Positions 9,977 through 45,641 of a stretch of 64,000 nucleotides of DNA are shown here, piece after piece; the first letter of the stretch is position 1; the number at the start of each line of letters is the position of its first letter. The notes below the pieces were generated by a model. That model ran no database searches, was not told the DNA's origin, and saw nothing but the letters and a program-made list of their open reading frames with translations. A program made the translations under genes and the position numbers. The stretch comes from an uncultured Methanomicrobiaceae archaeon (GTDB taxonomy: Archaea; Halobacteriota; Methanomicrobia; Methanomicrobiales; Methanoculleaceae), in contig CAWGXH010000003.1 in assembly GCA_963826525.1 (NCBI GenBank), positions 544,001-608,000 of the forward strand, given 5' to 3'.

Positions 9977-10070
9977 CTCGCCGTCCCGGAAGTGCGAAGT
10001 GCTCAGGATCGCTCCGACCCTGTCTTTTTATAGCAGTCCGTCTTCACTGCCGGGGTGAAGGGGGGAGAAG

Positions 10071-11144: not shown

Positions 11145-11231
11145 CTCACCGAACCTTTTTTCTTTCTGCAGAGATTCGCCGACCGCGTCCATCCCGCTGC
11201 CCCGGTATCGGAACAGCACCCGCCGTCTTTT

Positions 11232-11380
11232 CGCCACTCCTCCTCCGTCAGCCCGTAGAGTTCGTAGACCAGCCGGTCGGTTGCGTCGATCATCCCGGCG
11301 AGCACCTCCTTCTCATGCGGAGCCTTCGCCGCCTGGAGACGTCTGTTCAGGTCGAGCATTTCCCGGGTAATTTCTCTCAT
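11232..11380 (-). pseudogene. C-terminal remnant of a type IIG-like restriction-modification protein
   Basis: MLDLNRRLQAAK.PHEKE.L...IDATDRLVYELYGLTEEE is the typical tail of fused RM enzymes; the rest of the gene is absent. Confidence 0.65.
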
Positions 11381-11905
11381 GATCTGCTCCTGTGCGGGTG
11401 GACCAAAACGATCGCTCCCGAGGCGGCGACGCCTCAGTTCGGGCATCAGGCCGTCGGCGGGTTCCCGTAGGTAAAAGAGATGGGCGAGCGGGGTTATATG
11501 CGAACCGCGCTCAGTGAATGTGACTTATTGGGAACGGTTCCGAGGAATGCTTTATTTCGCCGCTGCCGGTGACAGCTCTCCGGCAGGATGGCCTTGATCG
11601 CCGGGAGAGTCCGGGCATCGGGGGCTGCATTCGTGAGTGCGGGTGTTTCGGAGGATATGCGTGGACGGATGTGATATCCCAGAATACCTCTGCATCCATG
11701 AGGGACCTGCCGATGGAGGGCGGACGTTCCCCGCTGCGAGAATAAACGGAGGAGATGCCACGCCTTTGCGGCACCGGCGGACTCTGCTGCGATAGCCCCT
11801 CACCTCCCCGCCTTCCTGCGGTAAGAGCACCGCCGGTACGATTCGCATGGTTTAACCCGCACCCGGAGAAACCTCCTGCTGTCACATAGTTCAGAGGCTA
11901 TTCCC

Positions 11906-13108
11906 ATGCACACCGATACCATTCCACGCACACTATCGATCCTTGTTGCGGCACTCATGCTGGTCACGCTCTGCGTTCCGGCTGCCGCCGCCCCGGCTGC
12001 CTCCTGGAACATTACCCGGCTCTCGCCGGACGCCGATGACTGTGTCATCCCGCAGATCTCGGGCGATTACGCCGTCTGGGCGGCGTATTTCAGGACCCTT
12101 GAGACAGAGAACGATACTCCCACGGGCATCGTCCTGCACGCGATCGCGACGGGCGAGAGCCGGACGCTTGCATCCTCGGAGAACGGAACGAAACCCTGGG
12201 GTCCGGACATCTCCGGCGACTCGGTGGTCTGGGTCGACGAGACGGAAGGGGACATGAAGATCCACCACTACGCGATCGGCACCGGCGCAGATACCGTACT
12301 GGCGGAGAGCGAAGACTCGCTCGGGTGGCCGTCGGTCTCCGGCGATGCCGTGATCTGGACCGAGAGCCCCGGCGGGAACCGGACCGATATCCGTCTCCAC
12401 GACCTTTCCACCGGCGAGGCAACCACCCCGGTCTCGGTCGGTGCAGAGTTTGTGCTGGCCGAGATCGACGGTGACCGGATCTGCTACCTGAACCTGGATG
12501 ACGGCATCCTGTCCGTCTATAACATCACGTCCGGGGAGACCGCCCGCATCTCGGGAGAGGGCGTAAGTCCGCTCGAATTTGCGATATCCGGAGACCGTGT
12601 CCTCTGGATGGACGAATCCGACGGTCGGAGCGATGCCGGGTTTTTCATGAACACTACCCTGTACCTCTCCTCCCTTGACACCGGGACGAACGAGGTGCTC
12701 GACCGGTCCGTCAATTTCCTGGCATCCGGCAACATGAGCGCCGACGTGAACACCTATACCATCGGCTATCCCGCTCTCGGCGGGGATACTGCCGCATGGA
12801 CCCGGAAGAGCACGGTTGCGGGAAATGATACCGCCGTCATCCAGGTCTGCGATCTTGCCGACGGCACGCAGTCGTCCCTGCTGCGGGGACGGCAGACCAG
12901 CCGCCTCGCGACGGATGACGGGAAGCTCATCTGGGAAGAGGACACCGGCGACGTGCTGAAAAACGCCATTATGCTCGCCGAAACAGGGTCGTCACCCGTC
13001 TCCGGCACACCGGCAGCACCCCCCGCCGAGGAGGCACCGGGGTTCGGCATCCTGATCTCGGCAGCCGCGCTCCTTCTCGCTTGCGTTCTCGTGAGGATGC
13101 GCAGATAA
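11906..13108 (+). CDS. Secreted beta-propeller repeat protein with PGF-CTERM sorting signal
   Basis: Signal peptide, repeated PxISGDxxVW units, C-terminal APGFG + transmembrane helix + RMRR. Confidence 0.88.
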   Translation: MHTDTIPRTLSILVAALMLVTLCVPAAAAPAASWNITRLSPDADDCVIPQISGDYAVWAAYFRTLETENDTPTGIVLHAIATGESRTLASSENGTKPWGPDISGDSVVWVDETEGDMKIHHYAIGTGADTVLAESEDSLGWPSVSGDAVIWTESPGGNRTDIRLHDLSTGEATTPVSVGAEFVLAEIDGDRICYLNLDDGILSVYNITSGETARISGEGVSPLEFAISGDRVLWMDESDGRSDAGFFMNTTLYLSSLDTGTNEVLDRSVNFLASGNMSADVNTYTIGYPALGGDTAAWTRKSTVAGNDTAVIQVCDLADGTQSSLLRGRQTSRLATDDGKLIWEEDTGDVLKNAIMLAETGSSPVSGTPAAPPAEEAPGFGILISAAALLLACVLVRMRR

Positions 13109-13384
13109 CTCCGGTCACTTTTTTTCTGCCCTGCATAAACCGTTCCATTTCAATCTCTACCACCACGGCGTGAAGGAAGGTCGACCGTGCGGCCGCGATG
13201 CATCTGCGGGCCGGCGAGGGATGGCGGATCTGCGTTGGGTGGACGTGGTGCTGCCCGACCGTTCCTCTCAGTGGAATTGGTCTTAACCTCATTATTCCGG
13301 CAGAATAACCTTATCCAGCCATCCCCTGCGAGGCGAAAACCGGCACCCATATCATCCCGCTCTCCGATCTCTTCCCGGAGCAGC

Positions 13385-14536
13385 ATGGATCTCGCCGAAT
13401 ACCGAAAGATCAATACCATCATCGAGCGGGATAGTGCCGACGCGACCTACAAGTACGCCCTCCTCCGGGGCGTCATCGAGGTCTGCCAGCAGTACCCGCA
13501 CCTCCGGGAGGACGACGGCGATGCGGTCTCGTTCCCGCTCGGGCTGCTCGTCGAGAAGTGGCTGCTCTACTACTACCCGATCTTCGCGGCAGCGACGTTC
13601 ATCCCGCAGAAGAACGGGGAGACGCCGGATCAGAACGCCGGGAAGGTGGTCTCGTTCCGGAAGTCCTTCATGCCGGTCATCGACTACTACCGCGACCGGG
13701 GCGGGGTATCGGTCTTCTACAATGACTATACCCGCGGCTCGGTCCCGGAGGAGATCCAGCCGGCGCTCCGGACGCTGGTGAAGGAGATCCGGAGCACCAT
13801 CACCACAATGCCGATGAAGCACCTCGGCTACTCGCAGTCGAAGGAGCACTACTCGGTCTTCGACTGCCCCCGGCCGCTGTACCGGCTGCCGAAGGGCCGC
13901 CCGGTCGACCGGCTCTACCTGATCGAGAACGCCGGCCGGTTCTCCCTCTCCCGCGACCTCTGCACGATCTTCGAGTACTTCGGGAGCTTCATCTCCGGGG
14001 AAGAGTGCCTGCTGAAGAAGTGGGCGGCGTTCACCGCGGCGGCGGACAAGACCGGGACCGTCACCGAGGAGTGCATGCTCTCCCTGCTCGCGAGGACGCC
14101 GACGACCGAACGGGCGATCGCGGATGCACGCGGCATCTACCGCTCGGTCTTCGCGGAGGAGGGGCGGCTGACCTGCGTCTGGTCGGGGAGATCAATACAG
14201 TCGCCGGACGCGATGCATATCGACCACGTCCTCCCCTTCTCGGTCTGGAAGAACAACGACCTCTGGAACCTGCTCCCCGCCCTCGGGCCGGTCAACGCCG
14301 AGAAGCGTGACCGGATCCCCGGCCGTTCGCTCCTGGAGTCCCGCCGGGAATGTATTACCGACTACTGGGACCTGCTCCACGACCACGCACCCCGCCCGTT
14401 CGAGCGGGAGATTGCGGTCTCGCTCCTCGGCATGCAGGGGCTGCAGAGCGGCTGGCAGGATCCGGCGTTCGAGCGCCTCGCCGAGACCTGCGCCTACTTA
14501 ATCGACGTCCGGGGGTACGCGGCATGGGCGATCTGA
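13385..14536 (+). CDS. HNH endonuclease domain protein
   Basis: N-terminal ATYKYALLR; C-terminal CVWSG, HIDHVLPFS, NDLWNLLP and N..KRD motifs; ATG at 13385 after GGAG. Confidence 0.88.
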   Translation: MDLAEYRKINTIIERDSADATYKYALLRGVIEVCQQYPHLREDDGDAVSFPLGLLVEKWLLYYYPIFAAATFIPQKNGETPDQNAGKVVSFRKSFMPVIDYYRDRGGVSVFYNDYTRGSVPEEIQPALRTLVKEIRSTITTMPMKHLGYSQSKEHYSVFDCPRPLYRLPKGRPVDRLYLIENAGRFSLSRDLCTIFEYFGSFISGEECLLKKWAAFTAAADKTGTVTEECMLSLLARTPTTERAIADARGIYRSVFAEEGRLTCVWSGRSIQSPDAMHIDHVLPFSVWKNNDLWNLLPALGPVNAEKRDRIPGRSLLESRRECITDYWDLLHDHAPRPFEREIAVSLLGMQGLQSGWQDPAFERLAETCAYLIDVRGYAAWAI

Positions 14537-31330: not shown

Positions 31331-31506
31331 ACGACGGCAGGAACTGCCGTGCTGCACAATCCCCCAGGGATTCCCCACGGTTTTTCCTGCGGCGCAGCAA
31401 CCAGCATATTGCAGCAGTTTATTTTTGCGGTCGGCCGACCAGGATCGTCCAACACGGCAGTGCACCCACAATGCATATATACCAGGATAGCAGTCCATTC
31501 GTCCAT

Positions 31507-33815
31507 ATGTATAAAAGTATGCATATACTGGTCTGTCTTATTCTTCTGGCATTTCTGCTCCCGGTGGGAGTACTTGCCCAGACCAATGAGACAGGGGGGA
31601 ATGCAGACTGTTCCTCCCGAAGTTGTACAGTATGCCCAGGACTGGCCCCTGCCGAACCATGACTACAACAACTCGCGGGCCACCCTGGATTCGAACATCT
31701 CTTCGGCAACGGTTAAGGACCTTGGTGTATCGTGGGTCCACACCGTCCCCAGCGGCGCCAGCACCTTCGGGTCAATCTCCTGCACGCCGATCATCATGGG
31801 CGATACCGTCTACATGACCGACCTCGGGAACAACTTCCTGGCTCTGAACCGGACCACTGGCGACCTGCAGTGGCAGACCGTTGAGAACCTGGCCAACCTG
31901 GGTCCGAACGGCCCCTCCGTCGGTTACGGCAAGGTCTTCGGAAGCGCCTCCCCCTACGAGGTGGTGGCACTGGATCAGCAGACCGGCAAGGAGCTGTGGC
32001 GAACCGATCTGGCGAACCTGAGCGGCGATAACCCCGGCATCATCGGCATCGACATGCAGGGTACAGCTCTATGACGGTCTCTACTACATCTCCACCGTGC
32101 CCGGCAACGCCGGTGTCTTCTACGCCGGCGGAGCCGAAGGCGTCATCTTCGCCCTGAACCAGAGCACGGGCGAAGTGGTCTGGAACTTCTCGACCCTGAA
32201 TACTACCGATTACTGGGGCAACGCTTCGATCAATAGCGGAGGCGGGTGCTGGTTCCCGCCGGGCATCGACACCGCGACCGGCCTCGCCTTCTTCGGGATC
32301 GCCAACCCCGCACCCTTCCCCGGCCAGCCGAAGGGACCCGGCATTTCCCAGGACTATCCCAACGGGATCAGCCGGCCCGGGCCGAACCTCTACACGAACA
32401 GCATGATGGCCCTGGATTCCGCGAACGGCACGATGGCATGGTACAATCAGGTCTTGCCGCACGATATCTCCGACTACGATCTCCAGCAGGCGCCGATCCT
32501 GACCACCGCCACGATCAACGGCTCGGACCAGGCGATCGTCCTGGGCGCCGGCAAGATGGGGCGGGTCTACGCCTTCAACAGGACGGACGGCACCCTCCTC
32601 TGGGAAACAGCCGTCGGTGAGCACCAGAACGACACCTTAAAGGCCTTCCCGCTGAACGGGACCATTACCGTGATCCCCGGCGTCCTGGGCGGCGTGGAGT
32701 CCCCAATGGCCTATGCCGACGGCGTGGTCTACGCGGCTGCCAACAACCTGGCGGTCGACATGACCAACGGGCTGACTTTCACGCTCCATCCCCTCGCTGA
32801 AGCCACCGGCGACTTTGTGGCCATCGATGTGACTAATGGCAGCATCCTCTGGGATGCGAAGCTTGACTCCGGCCTCTTCGGCGGCGCCACCGTGGTGAAC
32901 GACCTGGTCTTCACCGGCACCTTCGACGGCACGCTCTACGCCTTCAACCGGACGACCGGCGAGGAGGTCTGGACCTACACCGCCCCCGCAGCAGTGAACG
33001 CCTGGCCGGCGGTCACCGGCGATACCGTCGTCTGGCCGATCGCCGGGCCGGGAGGACCGACGTCGATCCTCGGGTTTGCGCTCGGAGCGACCGAGCCGAC
33101 TGTCACCATCATCAGTCCCGATGATAACGCATCGCTGCCGGCAGGAGCGATCACCGTGGATACAGTGGTGACCAACTTCAACGTGAGCGACCCGTCCGGC
33201 CAGGCGAACGCCACCGGTGCCGGGCATCTCGTCTACTACCTCGATATCACACCGCCCACCACCCCGGGCCAGTCGGCCATTCCATCCAACGGCACCACCT
33301 GGACGGCGACCAACGCCACCACGTATACGTTCGCCAACGTGACGTCCGGGACGCATACCCTCGCGGTCCAGCTGGTGACCGGTGACAATGCCACCCTGAG
33401 CACGCCGGCGGTGGAGACCGTCACCTTCAGCACGGACACCAACCCGCGGATCAACATCAGCCAGCCCACCAACGGGAAGATCGTCCGAACCGGCAACATC
33501 ACCGTCGACACCGAGGTGACCAACTTCAACCTGACCGACAAACTGGGTCAGCCGAACGTTCCCGGCGAGGGGCACATCCACTACTACATGGACTACCCGC
33601 CGCCGACAACACCGGGCGTCCCCGCTATTCCGCCTAACGGCACCGTCTGGGCCGCCACAGCGAACACCTCATATACCTTCACCGACGTCCCGGTGGGTAT
33701 CCACAACTTCTCTGTCGAACTGGTGAACAACGACCACACCCCGCTCGAACCTCCGGCGACCTCCAGCGTCCAGACGTTCGTGATCACCTACACGGGCGGC
33801 CTTGGAGGACAGTAG
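31507..33815 (+). CDS. Secreted PQQ-binding-like beta-propeller protein with two C-terminal Ig-like repeats (frameshifts near 31600 and 32060)
   Basis: Signal peptide, repeated A(L/F)(N/D)..TG...W units, HDISDYD and GKMGRVYAFNR; tandem GHL/GHIHYY repeats. Confidence 0.82.
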
Positions 33816-34146
33816 CGGGAACCTCAAACCCACCACAACCTCTCTTTTTCTTTCGCTATTGCAGGCACCGGCGCGGGGGTACGTGTGCTTTCCCGGTTCC
33901 GGGAAGGCTGACCGCAGGTTATGAACGGCTCTTCCGCCCATCAGGTCGTGAAACTTCGGCTGCTCTTGAAGAACCGTTACACTCCGCTTACCTGGAGGGC
34001 AAGCATCGCACTAGGAAGTCCTCCGGGGGATATCGGGGGTGCCATAGCGGCGGGGGGGTCGGCGGCCCCTACTACCCCCTCTCCTTTGTTCGGGAACAGG
34101 CGCGGACACGAGTTGAGGAGGGAGGCGAAGAGGTCCCGCCCGCCCT

Positions 34147-35685
34147 CTAGAACTCGGGAATGAGGTAGTTCTTCGTGTCGGCCGCGTAATCCCTCGGGGC
34201 ATTTCCATCCCGCAGCGTCCCGGCGAACTTCTCGGTGTTCCCGATAAGCCTGCCCGACGCATAGGAGCCCACCAGTTTGATCAGCGGATTTCCGGAGACG
34301 ATTGTGTCCTGCATTGTACGGGCAAGGCGGACGTCGTGTTCCATGCAGGTGCCGATCAGGCGCCAGTGGAGCGGCGTCATCTTCTCCACCGTGAACGACT
34401 TCTCGCGGGAGAGGCTGGACTCGCCCATGGCCACGAAGTTCATCGGCACGATGAAGACCAGCATATCTTTCAGGTCGTCGACGAGGTCAAGCGTCTGGAG
34501 CACGTCGTCTTCGGTCTCTCCGGGCAGCCCCGTCACCAGCGTGCAGGCGAGGACCCACTTGTGGTCGGAGAGGTGACCGATGCTCTCCATCACCAGTTCG
34601 CGCCATTGATCGGGCTTTGCCGGGAGTGTCTTTCCGTGCATATACTGCTCCATGAGCCTGGAGCTCGCCGTCTCAATCCCCGTCTGGGCTCCGATGAACT
34701 GCTGCCCGGGAAGGGTCATGAGGAACTCGGAGAGCTGGTCGACGGGCTCGGGGTGGTGGTATGCCGTGGCCAGGGCGATATGGCTGCATGCCACTTCCGT
34801 CACCCCGTCGACGGCGCCGACCCGGGTGAAGAGCTTCATGACCTTCTCGGGATCGGCTCTGATGGTTTTCGAGCCGTACCGGAGTACATCCTCGGAATGC
34901 AGCAATACCGCCGTGTTTCCGGCCTGGACGTTCACCTGCACGTCGCCGACAATCTGGTCGATGGGCTTGTGGAGGACCTTCAGCATGCCGGGCGTGCAGA
35001 ACGCACATCCCCGCCCGCAGCCGCGTGATATCTCGACGAGCCCGTGGATGCTCGGCCTCCGGATAGGGGGGATGCGCTCGAGGGGAACGTCCTCGCCCTG
35101 AATGATGCGGGGAACCTCCTCGCCGTTGATGATCGCCCTGCATGCCCTGGGCATCGAGATCTCGCCCATCCCCAGGTGCACGTGGTCGATGCCCAGCCGC
35201 TCCATGACTCCCGGGTCGGAGACCTGCCACGCGCCCTTGCCGCCGACGATCGTGGTAACCTTCTTCAGGGCGGGATTCCGCATCAGTTCCAGGAACTTCA
35301 GCCGGTTATAGGGAGGGCCGGTCCGCGCGATGTCCACGAACGTGGAGGTTGGCGGATTGATCCCGAGGAGGTCGTGACCGCCTATCGCTACGATCTTCGT
35401 CTCCCTGCCGACCATCCGCCGCAGATCCCGCGGATGGACGACCGCTACCTCGTCTTCGGTAAACCCGTCGGCGAGGAGGGCTGCTTCCAGCGTCCGCAAA
35501 CCCAGGTCGGCAAACACCGCTCTCCCCTGCTTCCGCGGGACAGGAGGGGCAAATGCCAGAAAGAAGAGCCAGTCGGGAAGAATGCCGCGGGGGGCACAGG
35601 TGGCGAACCCGAGGAACATGCCGCCCCGGTAGTTGCTCATCATCGTCTCATCGGCGGTAAGGATGATCGTCGGCGATCGCGTCAT
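34147..35685 (-). CDS. Radical SAM protein (B12-binding-domain class)
   Basis: EISRGCGRGCAFC, GIETAS and GLPGETEDD. Confidence 0.9.
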   Translation of the reverse strand: MTRSPTIILTADETMMSNYRGGMFLGFATCAPRGILPDWLFFLAFAPPVPRKQGRAVFADLGLRTLEAALLADGFTEDEVAVVHPRDLRRMVGRETKIVAIGGHDLLGINPPTSTFVDIARTGPPYNRLKFLELMRNPALKKVTTIVGGKGAWQVSDPGVMERLGIDHVHLGMGEISMPRACRAIINGEEVPRIIQGEDVPLERIPPIRRPSIHGLVEISRGCGRGCAFCTPGMLKVLHKPIDQIVGDVQVNVQAGNTAVLLHSEDVLRYGSKTIRADPEKVMKLFTRVGAVDGVTEVACSHIALATAYHHPEPVDQLSEFLMTLPGQQFIGAQTGIETASSRLMEQYMHGKTLPAKPDQWRELVMESIGHLSDHKWVLACTLVTGLPGETEDDVLQTLDLVDDLKDMLVFIVPMNFVAMGESSLSREKSFTVEKMTPLHWRLIGTCMEHDVRLARTMQDTIVSGNPLIKLVGSYASGRLIGNTEKFAGTLRDGNAPRDYAADTKNYLIPEF

Positions 35686-35840
35686 TCATTGCACCGGGCG
35701 GAATAATATGACGGGCACTTATTAACTTTTGCACCGGATAGATCCTCCGGTGCGCACTCGAAGATCCGGAGCCGGCTGGCCGAATCGCCGTCACCCGGAA
35801 GAGGGCGGTGCGATTGGAACGGCCCATGCAGCAGGAGATG

Positions 35841-36173
35841 CTACTCCTGCTCCAGGACTTCTTTGATCACCGCCGCATTGTTGTGCTCCTCATCCTTCGC
35901 CGCATACACGAGCGTCACCGGTCCCCTGCCCGCCCGTGTGCGGATCCTGCCGATCAGGTCGCTCTTCTCCCCGAGTTCCTCCCGGTACCGCTCCCGGAAC
36001 GCATCCCACCGCTCCGGGTCGTGGCCGAACCACTTCCGCAGGCCGTTGCTCGGGGCGATCTCCCTGCACCAGAAGTCGATCTTCGCCCGCTCTCGCGAGA
36101 CCCCGTGGGGCCAGAGCCGGTCGACGAGGATCCGGTAGCCGTCGTAGGCACGTTTGAGGTGGATCATTGCCAT
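35841..36173 (-). CDS. DUF488/YeaO family protein
   Basis: [31 protein letters not shown] and [14 protein letters not shown]. Confidence 0.88.
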
Positions 36174-36291
36174 CCCTGCCGGTGTCGGGTCTCTGCACGG
36201 TGATACAAGATTTGGCCGCGCGGGAGCGAGACTTCGAAAAGAATCGTCGTTAACACTGGCTATAACTATGCGGTATGCCATACAGCAGACC

Positions 36292-37584
36292 ATGAACCGA
36301 AAACTGATCGGCATGCTGGTCCTGGCATCGTTCGTCGCACTCGGCAGTATCGCTGCCGGGTGCACCGATACGCCGGGCACGACGTCTGCAGACGCTGCTC
36401 CTCCTGCCGGGCAGGAGAACGGGTCGGCGGCGGACGGCATCGCCGGTGTCGCTATGGGAAACAGTCTGTTTGCCTGTGACCTCTACCGGCACCTCGCGAA
36501 CGATTCGGCATCAGAGAACCTCTTCTTCTCGCCGTACAGCATCTCGTCGGCTCTCGCGATCACCTACGAGGGCGCCCGCGGCACGACCGCCGACGAGATA
36601 GGGTCGGTGCTGCACCTCCCGGAGAACGATACCCTCCGGCGTGAGGGGTTTGCCGGGATCAACGCAGGGCTAAACAGCGGCGATGCGAATTATACCCTGC
36701 GGACGGCGAACGCACTCTGGGCGGAGGAGACGTATCCGTTCCTGCCGGAATACATTGATACGGCAGAGCGCTACTACGCCGCGAACGCGACGAACCTCGA
36801 CTTCGTGGGCGCTCCCGAGGAGTCGCGCCGGACGATCAACCGGTGGGTCGAGGAGCAGACCGAGGATAAGATCCGTGACCTGCTGCCGACCGGCTCGATC
36901 ACTCCGCTGACCCGGCTCGTCATCACGAACGCGATCTACTTCAAGGGAACGTGGGTCACACAGTTCGACGCGAATGAAACGACGGAGGATGATTTCGACG
37001 TTTCACAGAACGAGACTGTCCGCGTCCCGATGATGCAGCGGACCGACGAGGACGCCGTCTACCCGTATACGGAGACCGATACGCTCCAGGTGCTCGCAAT
37101 GCCGTATGCGCACGAGAGCGGACGAGAACTCTCGATGCTGGTCATCCTCCCGAAGGACGGGAACCTGACGGTCGCCGAAGAGGCTCTCGACGCGGAGAGG
37201 ATCTCAGGAATGCGCCTATCGCTGGCCTCGCAGCGTGTCGACGTCTACTTCCCGAAGTTCACCCTCGAGACGGAGTACAGCCTCCCGGAGACCCTCGCGG
37301 CGATGGGAATGCCGACGGCGTTTACCGGTGCGGCCGATCTCTCGGGGATGGACGGCACGAAGAACCTGTTCGTCAGCGATGTCGTCCATAAGGCGTTCGT
37401 CGACGTGAACGAGGAGGGCACCGAGGCCGCGGCGGCGACCGGGGTCGTCATCAGCCTGACCTCCGTCCGGGAAGACGCTACCCCCGTCTTTAAGGCCGAC
37501 CATCCGTTCGTCTTCCTCATTCAGGAGAACGAGACTGGAAACATTCTCTTCATGGGGCGGGTTATACGGCCGGTAACGGCCTGA
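36292..37584 (+). CDS. Serpin, predicted lipoprotein
   Basis: Lipobox-like IAAGC; [18 protein letters not shown], hinge [13 protein letters not shown] and [11 protein letters not shown]. Confidence 0.95.
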
Positions 37585-37978
37585 TCGCCCCCTTCTCCTC
37601 CGGGCAGGCAGCCTGTCGGCGTCGCGATTCCTGCCGTGGGTGAACTGTACCGTGAAGCATTCCGTACCCGGAACCGATCCGAATGCCTGCGACCAGCACA
37701 GTCAGGTATATATACTCTCTCCTCTATCACGCCGCGGCGTGGGAACCTCGATGCCGTGGCCCCTCTCGCCCGACACCGCCTACAGGCAGCTCGTCCCTTT
37801 TCAGTACGGTCGACGAGCGATCTGCGCATCCGGCGCAGCGGAGCTCTCCGGGAAGCGGGCATTCACACTATTCATCTGTCTGCCAGGGACTGCACATGCG
37901 ATCGTGGTCGCATGCAGAGGGCTCTCCTTCCGGCGGAGAGACGGAAAACCGGCCAACAGTTGAGTGAAGGTGAAACGT

Positions 37979-39168
37979 ATGAAAACCGTATCTTTCAGCG
38001 CGATGACCGCCGCCATCATCGTCATCGCCGTTATCTGCGCGACGGGACTCGCTTCGGCACAACCGTTCCCGACGCAGGAGGTCGGACCTCAGCAAAACCA
38101 GACCCCGCAGAACGACTCGGCAGGTGCCGGGATGCAGGTATCGAGCGGCCCGGGGGATAAGTTGTACCCGGCGATATCCGGGAACGGTATCGTCTGGATG
38201 GACAACGAGTCATTCTCGGTGCAGCTCTACAACAGTTCCTCGGGGAACGCCTCGACCATATCCGATGCTGCGTCGGTACCTCTTCCCATGCCCTACCAGC
38301 TTGCCGTCGACGGAAATAAGGTCGTGTGGCCGGGAATAAGCCAACAGACGGGAGATATACACCTCTTCCTCTACGATGCCGCTTCGGGCAGGCTGCAGCA
38401 GGTGACGAATGAATCCGGTATGTACGCGTACCCGGGCGTGTCGGGAGAGTACGTCATCTGGACGAATCTTACGAACGGGTCGAGCGACGTATACCTCTAC
38501 AATAGTGCAAGCGGGAGCATCGAGCCCGTGGTCACCGATCCGTATCTGCAGCTCTGGACCGACATCGGTGGAAACACGATGGCCTGGGCGGATAACGAGA
38601 CCGAGGGCGGGGATACCGATATCGCAATAGCATTCCTCGATCAGCCGGAGATAAGTCTCTGGGGCAGTTCGGGTGACGACCTCGTTCCCGACGTCTCGAG
38701 CGACGGTGAGCGTGTCGCCTGGATAAGCGTCTTCGATAACCGGACCGCCGTCTACCTCTATGACGTGGCGACGGACAACGCAACCCGAATAACCGGAGTA
38801 TCCGCACTCCCTGATGCCGTTGCGGTCGATGGGAACCTCGTGGTCTACTCGGATTGGCGGAACGGAAACTCCGACATCTATGCGTACGATTCAGTACCGG
38901 AACGGAGACGCCGGTCACCCGGGATGCGTACGACCAGGCCTACCCGGACGTCTCCAATGGCGAGATTGTCTGGATGGGCAACAACACCGGGCAGTGGGAG
39001 ATCTACCGCACCTCCGTCGGCGGCGGCCAGCAGGCACCGCAGGGGCAGAATCAGAGCGGGACGCCCGGTACGACCCCGTCGCCGACGGCGACATTCCCGG
39101 GCCCCACCCTTCCCAAACCGCTCCCGACCGGGACGATGCCGGGCAATGCCTCTCAGACGGGGGGATGA
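37979..39168 (+). CDS. Secreted beta-propeller repeat protein (frameshift near 38895)
   Basis: Signal peptide; PAISGNGIVW and DWRNGNSDIYAYD repeats; Pro/Thr-rich tail in the second frame. Confidence 0.82.
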
Positions 39169-39203
39169 ACCGGTAACCGGACGTATCCCGGGGGAGTCTG
39201 TCT

Positions 39204-40350
39204 ATGCGGGAGATGGGGTATCGAGCCTGTAAAGCGCTGTCCGTGAGTATCCTCGTCCTGCTGGTACTTGCCGCACCCGCGAGCGGCGTTGCCGGCACCG
39301 GGGAGCCGGAGCCCGTGGCGGTTGCCGCTAACGTAACCTACCTGGCGGCATGCCCGCTTGCGTTCTACAACACCCTCGTCAGCAGAGAGTGCCCCATGAT
39401 CACGTTCAATCTCTCGAACAACGGGAGTACTCCCCGGAACGTACGGGTCTTTTCGGAGTACCAGGGACTCAGTTACCAATCCGTCAACACCGGCACCGTC
39501 GATCCGGGTTCTTACGCGCTCGTCAACCAGACCCCGTCGCTGATCCGGAGCGCAGCGCACAATGTCTCGACCATTACGACGACGAGCCTCCACTACGGCG
39601 TCGAGGTCTCCGACACAAGTGGGTGGCGACTGCTCGAGGAGCAGACGGTGCCGGTCGACGTCTTCCCTGAAGATATCATGATCTGGGAGGCGATGGACTC
39701 CGAAGGCAACCGCATTCCCCTGTACGAGTTTATCGGCGTCTTTGTGACGCCAAACACCCCGGCCGTCCGCGAACTGCTCTCCACGGCAGGACGCTACGCC
39801 GACCCGGCGTACCGACCCCCGGTATGGCACCTACCTGCCGGAACACTCGCTCGAAGGCTACCAGTACCCGGGCGGCTCGGCCGAGGAGTACCGGAACTAC
39901 ACGGCGCTCCAGGTGAAGGCCGTCTATAATGCGCTGAAGTACGGCTACAACATCTCGTATGTCAGCACCGCAACCGCCGTCGGAGGGCCTGACGGGTACT
40001 ACCTCCAGCGGATAAATCCGCCCGACGAATCGATACACCTCGAGACGGCAAACTGCGCCGACGGGGCAGTCCTCATCGCCTCGGCGCTCGAGGCCATCGG
40101 CATCAGGCCCTATATCGTCACTTTTCCGGATCACGTCTTCGTGGCATGGAGCACCGACGACAGCGGGACGTATATCGATGCTCTCGAGACGACCCTGATC
40201 GGAACCGCTGAGTTTGAGGATGCGTACACGGTAGGAAATCAGGAGCTCCGGGAGAACTGGGAAGCGATCAACAACACCGCATTTGAGGACGGCTATCTCA
40301 TCGTCGATATAGGGGAGGTGCGGGAGCTCGGAGTCCTGCCGCTCCGGTAA
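39204..40350 (+). CDS. Secreted protein with a transglutaminase-like domain (frameshift near 39830)
   Basis: Signal peptide; ANCADGAVLIASALEAIG, PDHVFVAW and LETT (Cys-His-Glu arrangement). Confidence 0.78.
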
Positions 40351-40439
40351 GCCCGAAGATGCTGCCCGCACCGGTGCCGGTGATACGGATCTTGTATCGA
40401 GCAGATCCCGGACGTATCGGGAACGTCGTCGCAGAAGAC

Positions 40440-40663
40440 CAATCCCGACCCGGATGATCTCCGAGGAGCATGGTCCCTCCCTGCAGCAATGCATGCCGAT
40501 GATCTTCTCCCGGAGATCCTCGCGACTGACCGATCGGGAGTCCCGGATGAGGTCTCTCCATACGCAGAATGCTCATCAAGCGGTATCCGGAGGTCGAATC
40601 TGCGTGAAGGGGCATCCCGGGCAGGGCGCGGCGTTCAGGATCACGCGGCAGCGGGGCGCCTGA
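40440..40663 (+). pseudogene. Heavily decayed histidine-kinase ATPase relic
   Basis: Fragments ADDLLPEI and GGRICV..GHPGQGAAFR match the kinases elsewhere in this window. Confidence 0.55.
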
Positions 40664-40711
40664 TAGTGAACCGGCATTCTCCCTCCGGGAGTTCCTGTTT
40701 TTTACTCATTT

Positions 40712-40766
40712 CCGGCAATATCGGCTCAGTACTTCAAAACTGTTTTATTACTGGCAGTATTGCCGG
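40712..40766. repeat. Nested imperfect inverted repeat
   Basis: CCGGCAATA..CAGTA..AAAAC-T-GTTTT..TACTG..TATTGCCGG. Confidence 0.7.
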
Positions 40767-41008
40767 TACCGGGGAGATACTCAGGTATTTTGCGGGATGA
40801 ACCTGTCTTATCGGTGATTCATTTCTGGGGCTTATTTATGGAATTACGCCTTATAATTGTCGTATATTCCGATTTATGCTCATAAACGTCAGTAAATCAG
40901 AATGGAAAAGGATATGTACGAAAAAGAATTTAGAATAATAATATTCATATTCCCGGAATGTCCACGCATTCATAAGAACTTTTGAAATTTCAGATGAGGT
41001 GGCATTTA

Positions 41009-41350
41009 ATGGGATCGTTAAAACAGGAAATTTACAACTTTATTGCATCTTCGGGCGACGTCTCCTTCGTAGAACTCCGTGACACCTTCGGGGAGCGGTT
41101 CGCCGGAGAATACACGATGTTCTCTTCTCCCACTTCCAAGATCGTCCTCTGGGACGAGATATCCGGGGAGTTCATCGGAGCGATCGGCGAACTCCTGGTC
41201 GAAGGGAAGATCGGGATCCAGTACGACTCCGAGATCTACTCGCTCTATGCGGAGCGTGGCGCATCGTTGCCCTACCCGCTCGCAAAAAATCCCACCCGCG
41301 ATGTGTATGCCGGTTTTCACTGGCTGCCGGTGATCATGAGCGCACGGTAG
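41009..41350 (+). CDS. 113-aa protein resembling SaPI Ppi / pathogenicity-island proteins
   Basis: GAGGTG RBS; motifs SFVEL, IVLW, LPYPLA and HWLPV; family resemblance is recalled, not computed. Confidence 0.6.
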   Translation: MGSLKQEIYNFIASSGDVSFVELRDTFGERFAGEYTMFSSPTSKIVLWDEISGEFIGAIGELLVEGKIGIQYDSEIYSLYAERGASLPYPLAKNPTRDVYAGFHWLPVIMSAR

Positions 41351-41431
41351 ACCCGGCCGGCGGTACCAGTTCTCGCATTCTCGATACTGTCTTCTTCCGC
41401 ACCTCATCTCTTTTCAGGGAACGCCACCGCC

Positions 41432-43031
41432 TCACCGCCGTACCATATGAAAGATCGCCTCGGCATACGGCTGGCGGTCGCGTTCGGTGCGGTTGAGCAC
41501 GGGACGCCTGAACTCGTTGACGATCCTAAGCCCGCTCGCTTCGGCTATCGCCGGGTAGAGGTTGAATCTGTCGTTCGCGACGATGAAGAAGGTGCCGTCG
41601 TCCTTAACATACCGGCTGACATTCGCGAGAACCCGACCGACCCCGTCCACGTACTGCTGCCGCGCCGCACTCCCGGTGCCGGACGAGAGCGGCCCTATCT
41701 CCTCGGCGTCCCGGCGCCGAATCCCGAAGAGCTCGTAGGCGTAGGCGTGCTGCTCGTGGTAATCGATCTGGCCGACGTAGGGCGGCGAGGTGAAGACGCC
41801 GTCGATCTTTCCTTCCGCGATACGATCGGCAAAGGCAGGGTTCTCTGTACGGACCGCATCCGGGATATCGATCGTGCGTGAGTCGCCGTGCAGAACCGCG
41901 ACCTGCACGTCCTGTTTCAGCGCGGCAAACGCTTCGAGGCGGGCTATCGCGTCACGGGTGTTCTTTTTGAGGTGTTTGAGGATACTGCTTACCGGCGTGC
42001 AGAGCTTCTTGTGCTTATAGCAGTAGTAAGGCCCGCCCTGCCGCTCTTTCAGGGTTCCAAGGTCGTAATGGGTCGTCGCCCGGCACGACCGGGCGGTGCG
42101 GCTCAGGACGATCCGCATCAGCGTCCTGGCATCCTCGTCCGGGACTTCGTCTATCAGCCGGAGGTAGCAGGCCATCTCCTGCCGGATCCTCGTATTGAAC
42201 CACTCCGCGAGAAATCCCGTCATCCCGCCGTCGTCGATGAGGCGGGCGCCATCCCGCGTCCCGCTCTCCGCAAAGAACGAAGCGTTCTCGCGGAAGAACT
42301 CAAGCAGCCGCTCCTCTCCGTACGCCCGCTCCTCCTCCGGCTGTCCGTGAAATCTCCGTTTGAATGCAGGGCTCGGGAAGTGGGCTTTGTTGAATGCAGC
42401 AAGTCTCACCGTCGAGCTGCCGGTCATGCTCGTCGTCGAAGTTCCTGCGGGAGAAAGCCGTCGTCCCGGCAAGCGCCTTCTCGAGCGAGCGGTTGATCCG
42501 GGCGAGGTCGCCGTGCGTGAACTTCGAGCGGACGATCATGCAGTTGAATGCGGAGATATCGATCCCGACGGCATGCATCCCCATCTCCGCCGCCTGTATC
42601 AGGGTCGTCCCGCTCCCCATGAACGGGTCGAGGACGGTATCCCCCGTGCGGAAGAAGACGCCGGTCTTGAACGCATCCGTGTGGTCGTCGAGGAAGTACT
42701 CCACGAGCTGCGGGATGAACTTGCCCTTGTAGGGGTGCAGGCGGTGGACGTGTTTCGTGGTCTCGGACTCGCTGCAGCGGTCGAAGGATAGGTTCCAGTT
42801 CAGGTCGTGCCCGAGTCTCTCCCGCCACGCGTTCTCCCGCACCCGTTGCTGTTCGTAGTAGGCGGCAAGCTCGTCGAGGTCGATACGGGTGCCGCCTGTG
42901 GCGGCGTCCGTATGCTTCCGCACGTTGCCGTACTGGATCAGATAACCGATATTGGATCTGGTGATCGTCTTCTCCATATACGCGGAAGCCCACGCTGCAG
43001 CTTCCCCGAGGGTGACCAGGTGTTTTTGCAT
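41432..43031 (-). CDS. Amino-DNA methyltransferase (SPPY, probably N4-C; M.MjaII-like), frameshift near 42410
   Basis: N-terminal HTH-like segment, HRLHPYKGKFIPQL, DPFMGSGTT and TSPPY; about 530 aa when joined. Confidence 0.88.
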
Positions 43032-43235
43032 GACGTTGCGGGCGACCTCCGGCACGGACGGTTGTCCTGAAGAGTATTCGGCGCTCTGCAGGGTTTATGA
43101 TTACGGTATGGTGCGGCCGCCGGAACCGGGGGGTGTATGCCCTCCTCGCCGGGTGACGGTCGCCGGTTCGCCTCCGGGAAAGGAACGTTATTTATACGCC
43201 GAAGGATATCGAGCCATACACCTGGAAGGAGGGTG

Positions 43236-45641
43236 ATGATTCGTATGCTTGAGCCGTTGCCTCTTGAACGTTACCGGAACGCATTCCGTCTCGATGATCT
43301 GGAGTGTGTCAGCACAGAAGAGATACGACCTCTTGAGAAGATTATCGGTCAGGACAGGGCGCTTCGGGCGCTCGGGTTCGGCCTTGAGATCCCGCAGAAG
43401 GGGTTCAACGTCTATGCTGCAGGGTTTCAGGGAACCGGGCGGCTCAAGGCCGTTCAGGGCTTCCTCGACGACCTTCGGAAAGAGAAGCCACGGGCGCCCG
43501 ACTGGATCTACGTCAACAACTTCGAAAACCCGTACGAGCCGAACGCGATCCGCATGTCCGCGGGGACGGGCAACCGGTTTAAGAAGGATATGGCAGACTT
43601 CATCAGCGGTGCACAGCGGGTTCTTCCCCAGGCCTTCCAGAGCGATGAGTACGCTTCCCGGAGAGAGAAGACGCTCGGATCCCTGCAGGAGAACCGGAAT
43701 GAACTCATCGACCGGATCAACCGGACTGCTCAGGAGAAGGGTTTCGTCATACAGCCGACCCCGGCCGGCGTCCTGCCCGTCCCGGCGGTGAACGGACAGC
43801 CGCTCTCCGAGGAGGCGTTCACCGCCCTCCCGGCCGAGAAGAGGGAGGAGATCCGGCAGCGGGGGGAGGAGCTTGATGCCGACGTCCGTGATCTCCTGCG
43901 GAAGATCCGGGATGTCGAGCGGCAGGGCGGCGAGGCGGTGGAGAACCTGAACCGGCAGGTTGCGCTCTACGCAATCGAACCCCTCGTGGCGGATCTCAAG
44001 GAGCGATATGGCGAGATAGACGAGATCTCGGCGTTTATCGATGCGGTGGAGAAGGACATCCTGGACAATTTCCAGTTGTTCATCGCCGGCCCGCAGCAGC
44101 AGCAGCAGCTCCGCCCCGAGCTGCAGGCCTTCATGCGAGAGGTTCCGTTACGGCGGTACGAGGTGAATGTGCTCGTGGACAACGGCGATGGAGAAGGGGC
44201 TCCGGTGATCTTCGAGCAGAACCCCTCCTACCAGAACCTCTTCGGAATAGTGGAGAGGGAGGTCCAGTTCGGCGCGTTAACAACCGATTTCACCATGATC
44301 CGGCCGGGCTCGATGCATAAGGCCAACGGCGGGTACCTCGTCCTCATGGTCGAAGACCTCTTCAAGGTTCCCTTCGCCTGGGACGGGCTGAAGACGGCTC
44401 TCAAGACGGGGGAGATCCGCATCGAAGAGCCCGGCGAGCGGATGGGCTTCATCACTGCAAAGACCGTCAAACCGGAGCCTATCCGGCTCGACGTAAAAGT
44501 GGCGCTGATCGGGAACCCGCAGATCTACCAGGCCCTGTATACCATGGACCCGGACTTCCGGGAGCTCTTCAAGGTGAAGGCCGACTTCGACACCGTCATG
44601 GACAGAAGCGACGAGAACGCAAAAAAATACGTGGAGTTCGTCTGCAGTCTGGTCGGAAACGACGGCCTCGGGCACCTGGACCGCGAAGCGCTCGCGAAAG
44701 TCATCGAGTACCGGCTCGCGGCTTGCCGAAGACCAGCAGAAACTCTCCACGCAGTTCGCCTCGGTAGCGGACCTCATCAGGGAGGCGAACTTCTATGCCG
44801 GAGAGGACGGGTCGGAGAGGATAACCGCAGGGCACATCAGAAAGGCAATTGAGGAGAAGATCTACCGCTCGAACCTCATCCAGGAGAAGATCCAGGAGTA
44901 CATGCGACGGGGCATCTTCATCATCGATACCGAGGGGAGCAGGGTAGGCCAGGTGAACGGCCTCTCGGTTCTGAGCACCGGCGATTTCGCCTTCGGCCGC
45001 CCGTCCCGCGTCACTGCGAGTATCGGCGTCGGCCGGGAGGGCATCGTGGATATCGAGCGCGAGGCGGCTCTTGGCGGCCCCATCCACACCAAAGGTGTCC
45101 TCATCTTAAGCGGCTACCTCAACGCCAAGTACGCTCCGGACAAGCCCCTGAGCCTCTCGGCACGGCTCGTCTTCGAGCAGAGTTACGATGGCGTGGACGG
45201 CGACTCCGCCTCGAGCACGGAGTCTACGCCCTGCTCTCCGCTCTTGCGGGGCTGCCCCTGAAGCAGTCCATCGCCGTCACCGGTTCGGTCGACCAGCGGG
45301 GAGAGGTCCAGGCCATCGGCGGGGTCAACGAGAAACTGGAAGGCTTCTTTGAGGTCTGCAAGGCAAAAGGCCTCACCGGCGACCAGGGCGCAATGATACC
45401 GGCGAGCAACGTCCAGAACCTGATGCTCAAAGAAGAGGTCGTGGAGGCTGCAAAGAAGGGGATGTTCCGGATCTACCCGGTTCGGACTATCGACGAGGGC
45501 ATCGAGTTCCTCACCGGCGTCCCCGCCGGAGAACAGAGATCGGACGGGACCTACGAGGAGGGGACGGTGAACTACCTGGTGAATCAGCGGCTCGCCGAGA
45601 TGGCGGAGAGGATGCGGGAGTACCAGATGCCCGTGCGGTGA
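43236..45641 (+). CDS. Lon-like protease (LonC-type; frameshifts near 44712 and 45222)
   Basis: IIGQDRA, degenerate P-loop GFQGTGR, ANGGYL, FEQSY..VDGDSAS (Ser) and IGGVNEK (Lys). Confidence 0.9.

What the first reader, a model, noticed from the sequence alone, without database searches (positions are those of the whole stretch)
41009..41350. Archaeal ORF resembling SaPI Ppi (phage packaging interference) proteins
Seen: a 113-aa ORF with a good RBS, behind a ~300-bp AT-rich leader, converging on a DNA methylase. Its motif order (LK..I..F......SFVEL...F, G, IVLW, EL..EG.I, Y...G..L..PLA, HWLPV) matches my recollection of the ~120-aa staphylococcal pathogenicity-island proteins assigned to Ppi. 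Established: Ppi blocks helper-phage packaging by binding the small terminase subunit. Inference: a stand-alone, domesticated anti-viral packaging inhibitor or a satellite relic in a methanogen. No integrase, primase or terminase is nearby.
Basis: inference. Interest (0 to 1): 0.7.

Follow-up and report, generated by a model that had tools for sequence, protein, structure and literature searches.

The report
Archaeal homologue of satellite protein Ppi
A small, well-conserved gene in a methanogen is a true relative of Ppi, the protein that staphylococcal phage satellites use to block their helper phage's DNA packaging, but here it sits alone in the chromosome and its role is untested.

Summary
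The ORF is real: ATG 41009 to stop 41350, 113 aa, GAGGTGG ribosome-binding site, AT-rich leader, converging on a type II DNA methylase.

The recalled resemblance to SaPI Ppi is true homology.
- A profile of the ORF's relatives hits 10 of 86 Staphylococcus genomes full-length (E 1e-15 to 4e-32).
- In a bona fide SaPI the hit is the first gene after pri-rep, the published ppi position.
- One such protein is named "Helper phage encapsidation inhibitor Ppi" by UniRef.
- BLASTP gives 29-30% identity over 110-113 aa (E 1e-12, 7e-11); hhalign gives 99.5%.

The family is large, with no Pfam model (phrog_7134). It lies mostly in satellite-like or mobile elements beside primase-helicases.

In the methanogen the gene stands alone. 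No integrase, primase, terminase or capsid gene was found nearby. It is syntenic with the methylase in all three genomes of its genus, with dN/dS about 0.15.

The anti-viral, TerS-binding role is inferred only, because no target was found. This is a new member of a known kind in an unusual host and setting.

The parts
40660..41008 (+). AT-rich leader upstream of the ORF
   Evidence: GC is 0.387 against 0.597 for the genome and shows as a dip in the composition profile. There are no Rfam matches and no iteron-like repeat families beyond short two-copy matches.
40900..41008 (+). Conserved upstream block, a presumed promoter or 5' UTR, containing the short palindrome GAATAATAATATTC
   Evidence: It is almost identical between the window and G196, while the rest of the intergenic region is much more diverged. 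It is partly kept in G252. The palindrome is I4. The function is inferred.
40996..41002 (+). Ribosome-binding site GAGGTGG, 6 nt before the ATG
   Evidence: Read. It is conserved in G196, and GGTGG is conserved in G252.
41009..41350 (+). Ppi-family gene, 113 aa (P0001): an N-terminal winged-helix domain plus a C-terminal extension ending in the HWLPV strand
   Evidence: dN/dS is 0.14-0.16.
41432..43055 (-). Convergent neighbour: a type II N6/N4 DNA methyltransferase, read here as two overlapping frames. It is context, not shown to be functionally linked.
   Evidence: Pfam N6_N4_Mtase on both pieces. The intact 540-aa orthologue in G196 matches PADLOC MTase_II at E 5e-195. One frameshift relative to that orthologue. 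The linkage with the Ppi-like gene is kept in G196 and G252.

Best explanation
The ORF encodes a genuine member of the Ppi protein family. This family includes the 'phage packaging interference' proteins of staphylococcal pathogenicity islands (SaPIs). The protein has one compact domain: a winged-helix core whose sheet is completed by the conserved C-terminal HWLPV strand. It is acidic (pI about 4.6).

The family circulates on phage satellites and other integrative elements, usually beside their primase-helicase genes. A few copies have reached methanogens. In this genus one copy has been kept as a single chromosomal gene, next to an orphan-looking type II methylase, with its own conserved promoter region and under purifying selection.

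By homology, its most likely action is protein binding, not catalysis or DNA binding. It would bind the small terminase (or an equivalent packaging protein) of an invading head-tailed virus and so block packaging of the viral genome.

Shown: the homology, the fold class, the stand-alone setting and the selection. Inferred: the binding partner, the anti-viral outcome and expression.
For: Homology
- phrog_7134 at E 4.4e-9, full length.
- 300 representatives at E<=1e-3, nearly all 103-185 aa and matched end to end.
- The A1 profile finds 13 places in 10 of 86 Staphylococcus genomes at E 1.2e-15 to 3.8e-32.
- In L097 the hit follows PriCT_1 primase and VapE-like Rep after a gap of about 250 nt. 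It precedes PF16560 SAPI, PF16722 CpmB and PF03592 TerS, with an integrase and an HTH repressor upstream.
- Papers place ppi just downstream of the SaPI ori (passages seen in PMC5052747, and PMC11846896).
- Source names: 'pathogenicity island protein', and UniRef 'Helper phage encapsidation inhibitor Ppi'.
- BLASTP of P0001: 29% over 113 aa, E 1e-12; 30% over 110 aa, E 7e-11; 22% over 93 aa, E 2e-5 to the second class.
- hhalign, archaeal against staphylococcal profiles: 99.5%, E 2.5e-22, 106 columns.

Function of SaPI Ppi
- It binds the phage TerS and blocks phage packaging (passages in PMC5052747, PMC6532042 and PMC6739421).

Fold and charge
- The AF2 model has pLDDT 95.5.
- The N-terminal 60-67 residues align to winged-helix domains at Z 6.0-6.6.
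- Net charge is -6, pI 4.64. The staphylococcal proteins are also acidic, at -3 to -9.

Retention
- The gene is present in 3 of 3 genomes of its genus, syntenic with the methylase.
- dN/dS is 0.14-0.16, with dS up to 1.67.
- The upstream 110 nt are conserved.

Stand-alone setting
- The neighbours are cellular genes.
- There are no hits in the window to SaPI or cf-PICI integrase, primase, portal, capsid, protease or TerS seeds.
Against: - No target is known. TerL_ATPase and HK97-capsid Pfam models found nothing in this genome, which is 87.6% complete. Terminase_2 was found in 0 of 55 genomes of the family.
- TerS binding is documented only for SaPI proteins that are 22-30% identical to this one. 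Ppi classes are phage-specific, so the partner may differ.
- I could not read the primary paper (Ram et al. 2012; not held). Its supplements were not seen either.
- Across the family the gene most often sits beside primase-helicases. This would also fit a replication-linked role.
- Net charge across the family is not uniformly acidic: the median is 0 over 120 members.
- Expression is unshown.
- A later review passage says that the way Ppi works 'remains to be deciphered'.
Confidence: 0.4

Rival explanations
1. The protein belongs to the Ppi family, but the family's general job is in the replication module of mobile elements, for example as a winged-helix adaptor acting with the element's primase-helicase or origin. 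Packaging interference would then be a staphylococcal specialisation. On this view the methanogen copy is a leftover of an integrated element that has been kept for some unrelated cellular role.
For: - Neighbour survey of 135 ORFs from 38 non-redundant loci: Prim-Pol 5, AAA_25 4, DUF5906 4, D5_N 4, NrS1-1 HBD 4, DUF927 3, Pox_D5 2, PriCT_1 2. One ORF can count under several families.
- Seeded local search: primase-helicase relatives in 19 of 49 loci.
- In L019 the gene directly precedes an 842-aa primase/helicase.
- In SaPIs it directly follows rep-ori.
- A weak profile match to the DnaA N-terminal domain, 2wp0_C, E 0.003.
Against: - Adjacency to replication genes is also what the SaPI layout gives for a protein known to act on packaging.
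- In a set of cf-PICI-like contigs the gene lies between the portal and the prohead protease.
- The methanogen has no linked primase or origin-like repeats.
- The DnaA match is weak, and the fold searches favour an ordinary winged helix.
Confidence: 0.25
2. It is a small winged-helix transcription factor that regulates itself or the neighbouring methylase.
For: - The N-terminal domain aligns with MarR/ArsR/PadR-type regulators (Z 6.0-6.6; Foldseek TM about 0.45).
- A conserved upstream block holds a short palindrome.
- The linkage with the methylase is kept in three genomes.
Against: - The protein is acidic: net charge -6, pI 4.6.
- No HTH or regulator Pfam family matches it, and none matches more than 2 of 104 relatives.
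- Z values below 8 are common for unrelated small folds, as the notes say.
- The idea of an R-M controller protein fails. The extra 447-aa ORF that lies between the two genes in G252 is an orphan with only low-complexity matches, not a recognisable endonuclease.
Confidence: 0.1
3. The gene and the methylase together are a two-gene remnant or module of a mobile element, either defence or anti-defence. The Ppi-like protein would act with or on the methylase rather than on a terminase.
For: - The convergent pair is conserved in G196 and G252 while the flanks vary. The Lon-like gene is absent in G196, and the left flank differs in G252.
- DNA methylases recur near family members elsewhere: N6_N4_Mtase 2 and C5 DNA_methylase 1 of 135 neighbour ORFs.
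- In another methanogen the gene sits among RelE/ParE, SIR2 (PADLOC PDC-S65, E 6e-164) and HNH genes.
Against: - Methylase adjacency is rare in the survey (3 of 135 ORFs).
- P0001 has no PADLOC model.
- The Methanogenium copy lies between FmdE and a hydrogenase operon with no methylase.
- Nothing in the SaPI passages I read links Ppi to methylation.
Confidence: 0.1
4. It is a chance ORF or a decaying pseudogene of no function.
For: Four neighbouring genes carry frameshifts in this assembly. One related methanogen, G177, has a frameshifted copy.
Against: - The frame is intact in three genomes, with dN/dS 0.14-0.16.
- It has a strong RBS and a conserved promoter block.
- The fold prediction is confident, pLDDT 95.5.
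- It has hundreds of full-length relatives.
Confidence: 0.02

Closest known systems
SaPI Ppi (phage packaging interference protein; 'Helper phage encapsidation inhibitor Ppi' in UniRef), main 120-aa class
   Same: - Homologous over the full length: 29-30% identity, E 1e-12 and 7e-11; hhalign 99.5%.
- Same size (113 aa against 120 aa).
- Same motif order, ending in DHWLPV/FHWLPV.
- Both are acidic.
   Different: - The host is an archaeon, not Staphylococcus.
- It is not inside a satellite: there is no int, stl, pri-rep, cpm or terS nearby.
- It is next to a type II methylase.
- The binding partner is unknown.
SaPI Ppi, second class (126 aa; 'Orf12', Q9F0K6-type). That this is SaPIbov1 ppi is recalled, not shown by any search.
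   Same: It occupies the same position after rep in a SaPI of the same genome (L099) and is homologous (E 2e-5, 22% over 93 aa).
   Different: It is more distant. The C-terminal motif is PSWVPMV rather than HWLPV.
phrog_7134 and unnamed relatives in satellite-like elements (cf-PICI-like contigs, integrative elements of many bacterial phyla)
   Same: Same family. The archaeal sequences sit in the tree half that holds Acidobacteriota, Actinomycetota, Verrucomicrobiota, Chloroflexota, Pseudomonadota and viral-contig members.
   Different: Those copies usually lie beside primase-helicase, integrase or capsid-module genes. The window's copy does not.
Rpp of Gram-negative cos PICIs
   Same: A functional analogue: a small satellite protein that binds the helper TerS (passage in PMC6739421).
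   Different: It redirects TerS to the satellite's cos site rather than only blocking it. No sequence relationship was tested or seen here.

Membership tests
Ppi family (SaPI phage packaging interference proteins) | Full-length sequence homology to proteins encoded at the ppi locus of bona fide SaPIs | tested here: met
   - Profile hits in 10 of 86 Staphylococcus genomes.
- BLASTP E 1e-12, 7e-11 and 2e-5.
- hhalign 99.5%, 106 columns.
- The SaPI identity of the locus was checked with Pfam and against the published gene order.
Ppi family (SaPI phage packaging interference proteins) | Small single-domain protein of about 113-126 aa with the conserved motif order ending in (H/S)W(L/V)P(V/M) | tested here: met
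   Only 2 longer forms (271 and 305 aa, with no added Pfam domain) were found in the search for fusions.
Ppi family (SaPI phage packaging interference proteins) | Same three-dimensional fold as SaPI Ppi | tested here: inconclusive
   The P0001 model is confident (pLDDT 95.5). The SaPI Ppi model, built from an 11-sequence alignment, is poor (pLDDT 64.4). No solved Ppi structure turned up in the PDB searches.
Ppi family (SaPI phage packaging interference proteins) | Binds the helper phage small terminase and blocks phage DNA packaging | not testable with these tools
   No candidate TerS was found in this genome or its family. No co-fold was run for lack of a partner.
SaPI/PICI satellite (the system, not the protein family) | The gene lies in an island with integrase, repressor, primase-replicase and origin, and a packaging or capsid-remodelling module | tested here: not met
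   - Pfam on 15 ORFs between 28.7 and 51 kb shows cellular genes only.
- Seeded phmmer found no integrase, primase, portal, capsid, protease or TerS in the 64-kb window.
- There are no tRNA genes in the window.
- The genome's integrases are on contigs C4 and C9.
phrog_7134 (PHROGs, unknown function) | Significant full-length match to the family profile | tested here: met
   E 4.4e-9, residues 3-111 on profile positions 5-111 of 119. It is the only match in the genome.
Winged-helix transcription regulators (MarR/ArsR/PadR-like) | Sequence membership in a regulator family, and a basic DNA-reading surface | tested here: not met
   There is no Pfam or NCBIfam match and net charge is -6. Only fold-level likeness of 60-67 residues at Z 6.0-6.6, which does not show function.
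Restriction-modification controller (C) protein | A small HTH gene preceding a restriction endonuclease gene and paired with the methylase | tested here: not met
   No ORF lies between the gene and the methylase in the window or G196. In G252 the intervening 447-aa ORF has only its own record and low-complexity matches, and it has no PADLOC hit.

The most novel reading that the evidence does not exclude
A lineage of methanogenic archaea has domesticated a phage-satellite interference protein as a single-gene defence against head-tailed archaeal viruses. More broadly, Ppi is not a staphylococcal curiosity. It would be the founding member of a family spread across many bacterial phyla and into Archaea that marks PICI-like hijacker elements or their relics, including in phyla and a domain where no such satellites have been described.
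Probability: 0.3. Interest if true: 0.8.

Novelty: new member of a known kind. Interest (0 to 1): 0.6.

Why it matters
In the papers I could read, Ppi is treated as a SaPI-specific protein. Two of them state that no homologue was found in other elements (PMC3675006, PMC11921389). A 2019 paper (PMC6739421) says its mechanism is undeciphered.

This work shows three things:
- The family has hundreds of diverged clusters.
- It lies in satellite-like and integrative elements of at least eight bacterial phyla by record title and in sporadic archaea.
- It has a confidently predicted winged-helix-based fold.

That gives three practical uses:
- A sequence marker for finding satellite-like elements outside Bacillota and Proteobacteria.
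- A deep alignment for working out the TerS-binding surface.
- A concrete candidate for a virus-packaging inhibitor in methanogens, where antiviral mechanisms are little explored.

If the archaeal copy proves unrelated to packaging, it would instead show that the family's core function is something else.

Tried and rejected
- **Direct searches with P0001 that gave nothing useful.** tblastn against 50,697 phage records found 4 records, all at E>=2. The word-based protein search found only the protein itself and one orthologue. phmmer against the PDB gave one irrelevant hit at E 0.031. NCBIfam and PADLOC gave none.
- **Locus search with the full alignment.** I made the 21-sequence subset A2, which shares YKxPHWLPV, and used that. 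Those 56 loci are therefore biased towards members carrying that motif.
- **DnaA domain I likeness.** The match to 2wp0_C is E 0.003. I did not pursue it, because the fold searches point to an ordinary winged helix.
- **R-M controller idea.** Rejected.
- **Origin relic in the leader.** There is no repeat family beyond short two-copy matches and no Rfam match.
- **Expression.** No RNA holder was listed.
- **Single origin of the archaeal copies.** The tree is poorly resolved, with 51 of 88 inner branches open. The AU test did not finish in two 288-s runs and was dropped.
- **SaPI Ppi structure prediction.** It came out at low confidence (pLDDT 64.4), so no fold-to-fold comparison was possible.
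- **Co-folding.** Not run, because no archaeal TerS candidate was found.
- **Fusions.** Only 2 longer proteins were found, without extra Pfam domains.
- **Cultured phages.** The staphylococcal protein and a consensus-like member hit only 3 and 2 records, all labelled Staphylococcus phage. One is the 15.6-kb PT1028. The family therefore looks rare in bona fide cultured phages.
- **Unavailable sources.** Earlier findings of this scan were not open. Ram et al. 2012 and 2014 are not held, and supplements are closed. The primary binding data and the class definitions of Ppi were therefore seen only through citing papers.

Full report
**1. The observation**

The ORF is present as described. The longest open frame runs 40982-41350 from a TTG (122 aa). 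The ATG at 41009 gives the 113-aa protein P0001. It is preceded by GAGGTGG at 40996-41002 with a 6-nt spacer. Both orthologues in the same genus start at the equivalent ATG.

The leader is AT-rich: GC 0.387 over 40660-41008 against 0.597 for the genome. The gene converges on a DNA methylase whose frame ends about 84 nt downstream.

**2. First searches**

Standard libraries do not name the protein.
- Pfam gives no match at E<=1.
- NCBIfam and PADLOC give none at E<=10.
- PHROGs gives one full-length match, phrog_7134, of unknown function, at E 4.4e-9.
- The word-indexed protein search found only one orthologue, 87% identical, named by its source as a Methanoculleus taiwanensis hypothetical protein.
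- An exhaustive HMMER scan of 1.84 billion cluster representatives found 300 proteins at E<=1e-3. Nearly all of the 150 listed are 103-185 aa and match end to end.

W105 is invariant and seven further positions are at least 90% conserved. None of the 104 members has a convincing Pfam family; at most 2 members share any hit at E<=0.01. So this is a real, large, unnamed family.

**3. Fold**

With A1 as input, AlphaFold2 gives a confident model (pLDDT 95.5, pTM 0.87). Its elements run helix, helix, hairpin, helix, strand, helix, then a long conserved loop and a final strand made by HWLPV.
- Foldseek against the PDB finds nothing at E<=1e-3.
- The search that does not lean on Foldseek aligns the first 60-67 residues to winged-helix domains (QsrR, MarR, Rpa2-WH, ScpB) at Z 6.0-6.6. 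No chain reaches Z 8.
- Among predicted viral structures, the only matches at E<=1.2e-3 are uncharacterised proteins of Bodo saltans virus, Gordonia phage Phendrix and a pithovirus.

The protein is acidic (net charge -6, pI 4.64). That fits a protein-binding winged helix better than a DNA-binding one.

**4. Is it related to SaPI Ppi?**

I needed real staphylococcal sequences rather than memory. I fetched phage 80alpha and used its TerS to reach Staphylococcus genomes. I then searched the 86 genomes of that genus with the A1 profile.
- Ten genomes have 13 full-length matches at E 1.2e-15 to 3.8e-32. An eleventh has a weak, probably spurious one.
- One genome has three copies. In each, the hit is the first ORF after a primase of about 290 aa and a replicase of 489-569 aa.
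- For L097, Pfam confirms the island: Phage_integrase, an HTH repressor, PriCT_1 primase, VapE-like Rep, then the hit, a 97-aa ORF, PF16560 'SAPI', PF16722 CpmB and a Terminase_2 TerS.

Passages in two papers place ppi between the SaPI origin and the packaging module, with the origin immediately upstream of ppi (PMC5052747; PMC11846896).

The exact proteins are in public collections as 'pathogenicity island protein [Staphylococcus aureus]'. One 120-aa member carries the UniRef name 'Helper phage encapsidation inhibitor Ppi'. The 126-aa second type is 'Orf12, Q9F0K6'.

Direct comparison of P0001:
- 29% identity over 113 aa, E 1e-12.
- 30% over 110 aa, E 7e-11, to the protein named Ppi.
- 22% over 93 aa, E 2e-5, to the Orf12 type.
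- A profile of five archaeal sequences against a profile of eleven staphylococcal ones gives hhalign probability 99.5%, E 2.5e-22, over 106 columns.

The recalled resemblance is therefore true homology.

**5. Where the family lives**

A motif-anchored scan gave 20 loci in genomes labelled as Acidobacteriota, Actinomycetota, Verrucomicrobiota, Chloroflexota, Planctomycetota, Pseudomonadota, Bacillota and one Methanogenium MAG. It also gave 36 IMG/VR contigs. The scan is biased towards members carrying YKxPHWLP.

Pfam on 135 neighbouring ORFs from 38 non-redundant loci is dominated by primase-helicase families: Prim-Pol 5, AAA_25 4, DUF5906 4, D5_N 4, NrS1-1 HBD 4, DUF927 3. Next come the capsid-module families: portal 3, S78 protease 3, capsid 2.

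A seeded local search found relatives of the following in 49 loci (lower bounds):
- SaPI or cf-PICI primase-helicases in 19.
- Integrase in 8.
- Portal in 15.

In about a dozen contigs the order is primase-helicase, two small ORFs, portal, this gene, prohead protease, major capsid protein, adaptor, HNH. A Staphylococcus genome has integrase, primase-helicase, this gene, portal, protease, capsid, with very strong matches to those contigs. This resembles the capsid-forming PICIs described for Staphylococcus, Bacillus and Clostridium (passages in bioRxiv 10.1101/2022.09.08.507074).

Cultured phage records almost never carry the gene: 3 and 2 records, all staphylococcal. The family thus looks like a satellite or integrative-element gene rather than an ordinary phage gene.

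**6. The archaeal setting**

In the order, the profile finds the gene in 6 of 201 genomes, counting the window's own.
- All 3 genomes of its genus have it.
- None of the 37 searched genomes of the large sister genus has it.
- It is also in one Methanogenium-like MAG and in two genomes of another genus, one copy being frameshifted.

In the phylum, 7 of 401 genomes have it, with some overlap with the order sample.

In the window, the neighbours are a P-type ATPase, a PQQ propeller protein, a radical-SAM protein, DUF488, a serpin, an unknown secreted protein, a transglutaminase-like protein, then this gene, the type II methylase, a LonB/LonC-like protein and PAS histidine kinases.
- There is no integrase, primase, portal, capsid or terminase in the window, and no tRNA gene.
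- The genome, 87.6% complete, has no TerL_ATPase or HK97-capsid match.
- Its two integrases are on other contigs.
- Terminase_2 is found in 0 of 55 genomes of the family.

The gene-methylase pair is syntenic in both sister genomes, while the surroundings vary. The Lon-like gene is missing in one. In the other, the left flank is different and an orphan 447-aa ORF is inserted.

The gene is under purifying selection: dN/dS 0.14-0.16 with dS 0.48-1.67. The 110 nt before the start codon are almost unchanged between two species, while the rest of the spacer has diverged. GC3 (0.72) is close to that of the neighbours (0.76-0.81), so the acquisition is not recent.

Other archaeal copies hint at how the gene arrives.
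- In G282 it lies 1.1 kb from a tRNA-Arg gene, after a RelE/ParE pair. It is flanked by a 56-nt direct repeat that occurs nowhere else in that genome, and is followed by a SIR2 protein (PADLOC PDC-S65) and an HNH protein.
- In G177 the broken copy follows an ORF whose sequence looks like a tyrosine-recombinase fragment. This is my reading, and it was not tested against a profile.
- The Methanogenium copy is wedged between FmdE and a hydrogenase operon.
- Five further archaeal genomes with the gene have no capsid or TerL match. The nearest integrase is about 31 kb away in one and distant or on another contig in the rest.

The tree is poorly resolved. It shows the Methanoculleus-type trio as one well-supported clade on a long stem, and the other two archaeal sequences placed separately among bacterial and viral-contig sequences.

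**7. How it most likely works**

*Shown.* It is a Ppi-family protein. It is a small acidic winged-helix-based domain. It is retained and constrained. It is not part of a recognisable satellite.

*Established elsewhere.* I saw this in citing papers only. SaPI Ppi binds the helper phage's small terminase but not the satellite's own TerS, and so blocks phage DNA packaging. Two sequence classes differ in phage specificity, and the structural mechanism is unknown.

*Inferred.* The methanogen protein binds a packaging protein of an infecting head-tailed virus and lowers its yield, as a single-gene defence left behind by a mobile element. I put this at about 0.4.

The main rival, at about 0.25, is that the family's general role is tied to element replication, given its usual neighbours. 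Smaller rivals are a transcription regulator, a functional pairing with the methylase, and a non-functional ORF. The last is contradicted.

**8. Comparison with what is known, and novelty**

As a protein it meets the sequence-based criteria for the Ppi family. As a system it fails the criteria for a SaPI or PICI. So it is 'a Ppi-family member outside a satellite', not 'a satellite'.

I searched the full-text library for the phrase 'phage packaging interference' (12 papers) and for Ppi with SaPI or TerS terms. I read passages in seven of those papers. None reports homologues outside staphylococci, and two report finding none in other elements. Subscription papers and supplements were not searchable, so this is not proof that it is unpublished.

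I file the finding as a new member of a known kind. Its setting is unusual (Archaea, stand-alone), and there is a useful by-product: the family's breadth and a confident fold model.

**9. Caveats**

- The staphylococcal identification rests on gene position, Pfam-verified island context and database names, not on the primary paper.
- The locus survey is motif-biased, and its gene calls are simple ORF calls.
- The assembly around the gene has five frameshifts in four genes relative to intact orthologues. This suggests indel errors. The ORF itself is intact and matches its orthologues throughout.

Noticed in passing
window 37964-45641: Four genes flanking the ORF are broken relative to intact orthologues in sister genomes, five frameshifts in about 8 kb. 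The methylase has 1 frameshift near 42351-42406. The LonB/LonC-like gene has 2, near 44700 and 45222. A 438-aa secreted protein has 1 near 38890. The transglutaminase-like gene has 1 near 39800. This looks like assembly indel error rather than biology.
   Followed up: partly
window 43137-45641: The LonB/LonC-like gene (AAA_32 and LonC_helical) next to the methylase is present in G252 but absent from G196, at an otherwise syntenic site. It has no PADLOC match.
   Followed up: partly
L113 (G282) 8765-13585: The Ppi-like gene of another methanogen is flanked by a 56-nt direct repeat, 80% identical and 509 nt apart, whose core occurs only at these two places in that genome. It lies 1.1 kb from tRNA-Arg(CCG) and after a RelE/ParE pair. 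A SIR2 protein (PADLOC PDC-S65, E 6e-164) and an HNH protein follow. This looks like a cassette in a defence-island-like spot.
   Followed up: partly
L114 (G177) 9900-10640: A frameshifted Ppi-like copy lies directly downstream of an ORF whose sequence looks like a tyrosine-recombinase fragment. I read this by eye; it was not profile-tested.
   Followed up: no
L038, L027, L040, L044-L051, L053 (IMG/VR) and L100 (a Staphylococcus genome): These are compact elements with the order primase-helicase, portal, Ppi-like gene, prohead protease, major capsid, adaptor, HNH. The staphylococcal locus has integrase, primase-helicase, Ppi-like gene, portal, protease, capsid. They resemble capsid-forming PICIs.
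   Followed up: partly
window 40900-41008: The 110 nt before the start codon are nearly identical between two species whose coding sequence is 86% identical. The block includes a short AT palindrome. It may be a promoter or operator.
   Followed up: partly
window 36154-37584: A full-length serpin gene (Pfam Serpin, E 1.9e-121) lies in a 6.4-kb stretch (31331-37704) that is replaced by about 450 nt in G196.
   Followed up: no
phage records OL690335.1, ON856257.1, AY954948.1: These are the only cultured 'phage' records holding the family. Two are long Staphylococcus phage records with a copy 96-97% identical to the island protein. The third is the 15.6-kb PT1028 record. They may be satellite DNA filed as phage.
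   Followed up: no
L111 (G252) 8149-9492: A 447-aa orphan ORF is inserted between the Ppi-like gene and the methylase in one sister genome. Its only matches are low-complexity, mucin- or PKD-like.
   Followed up: partly
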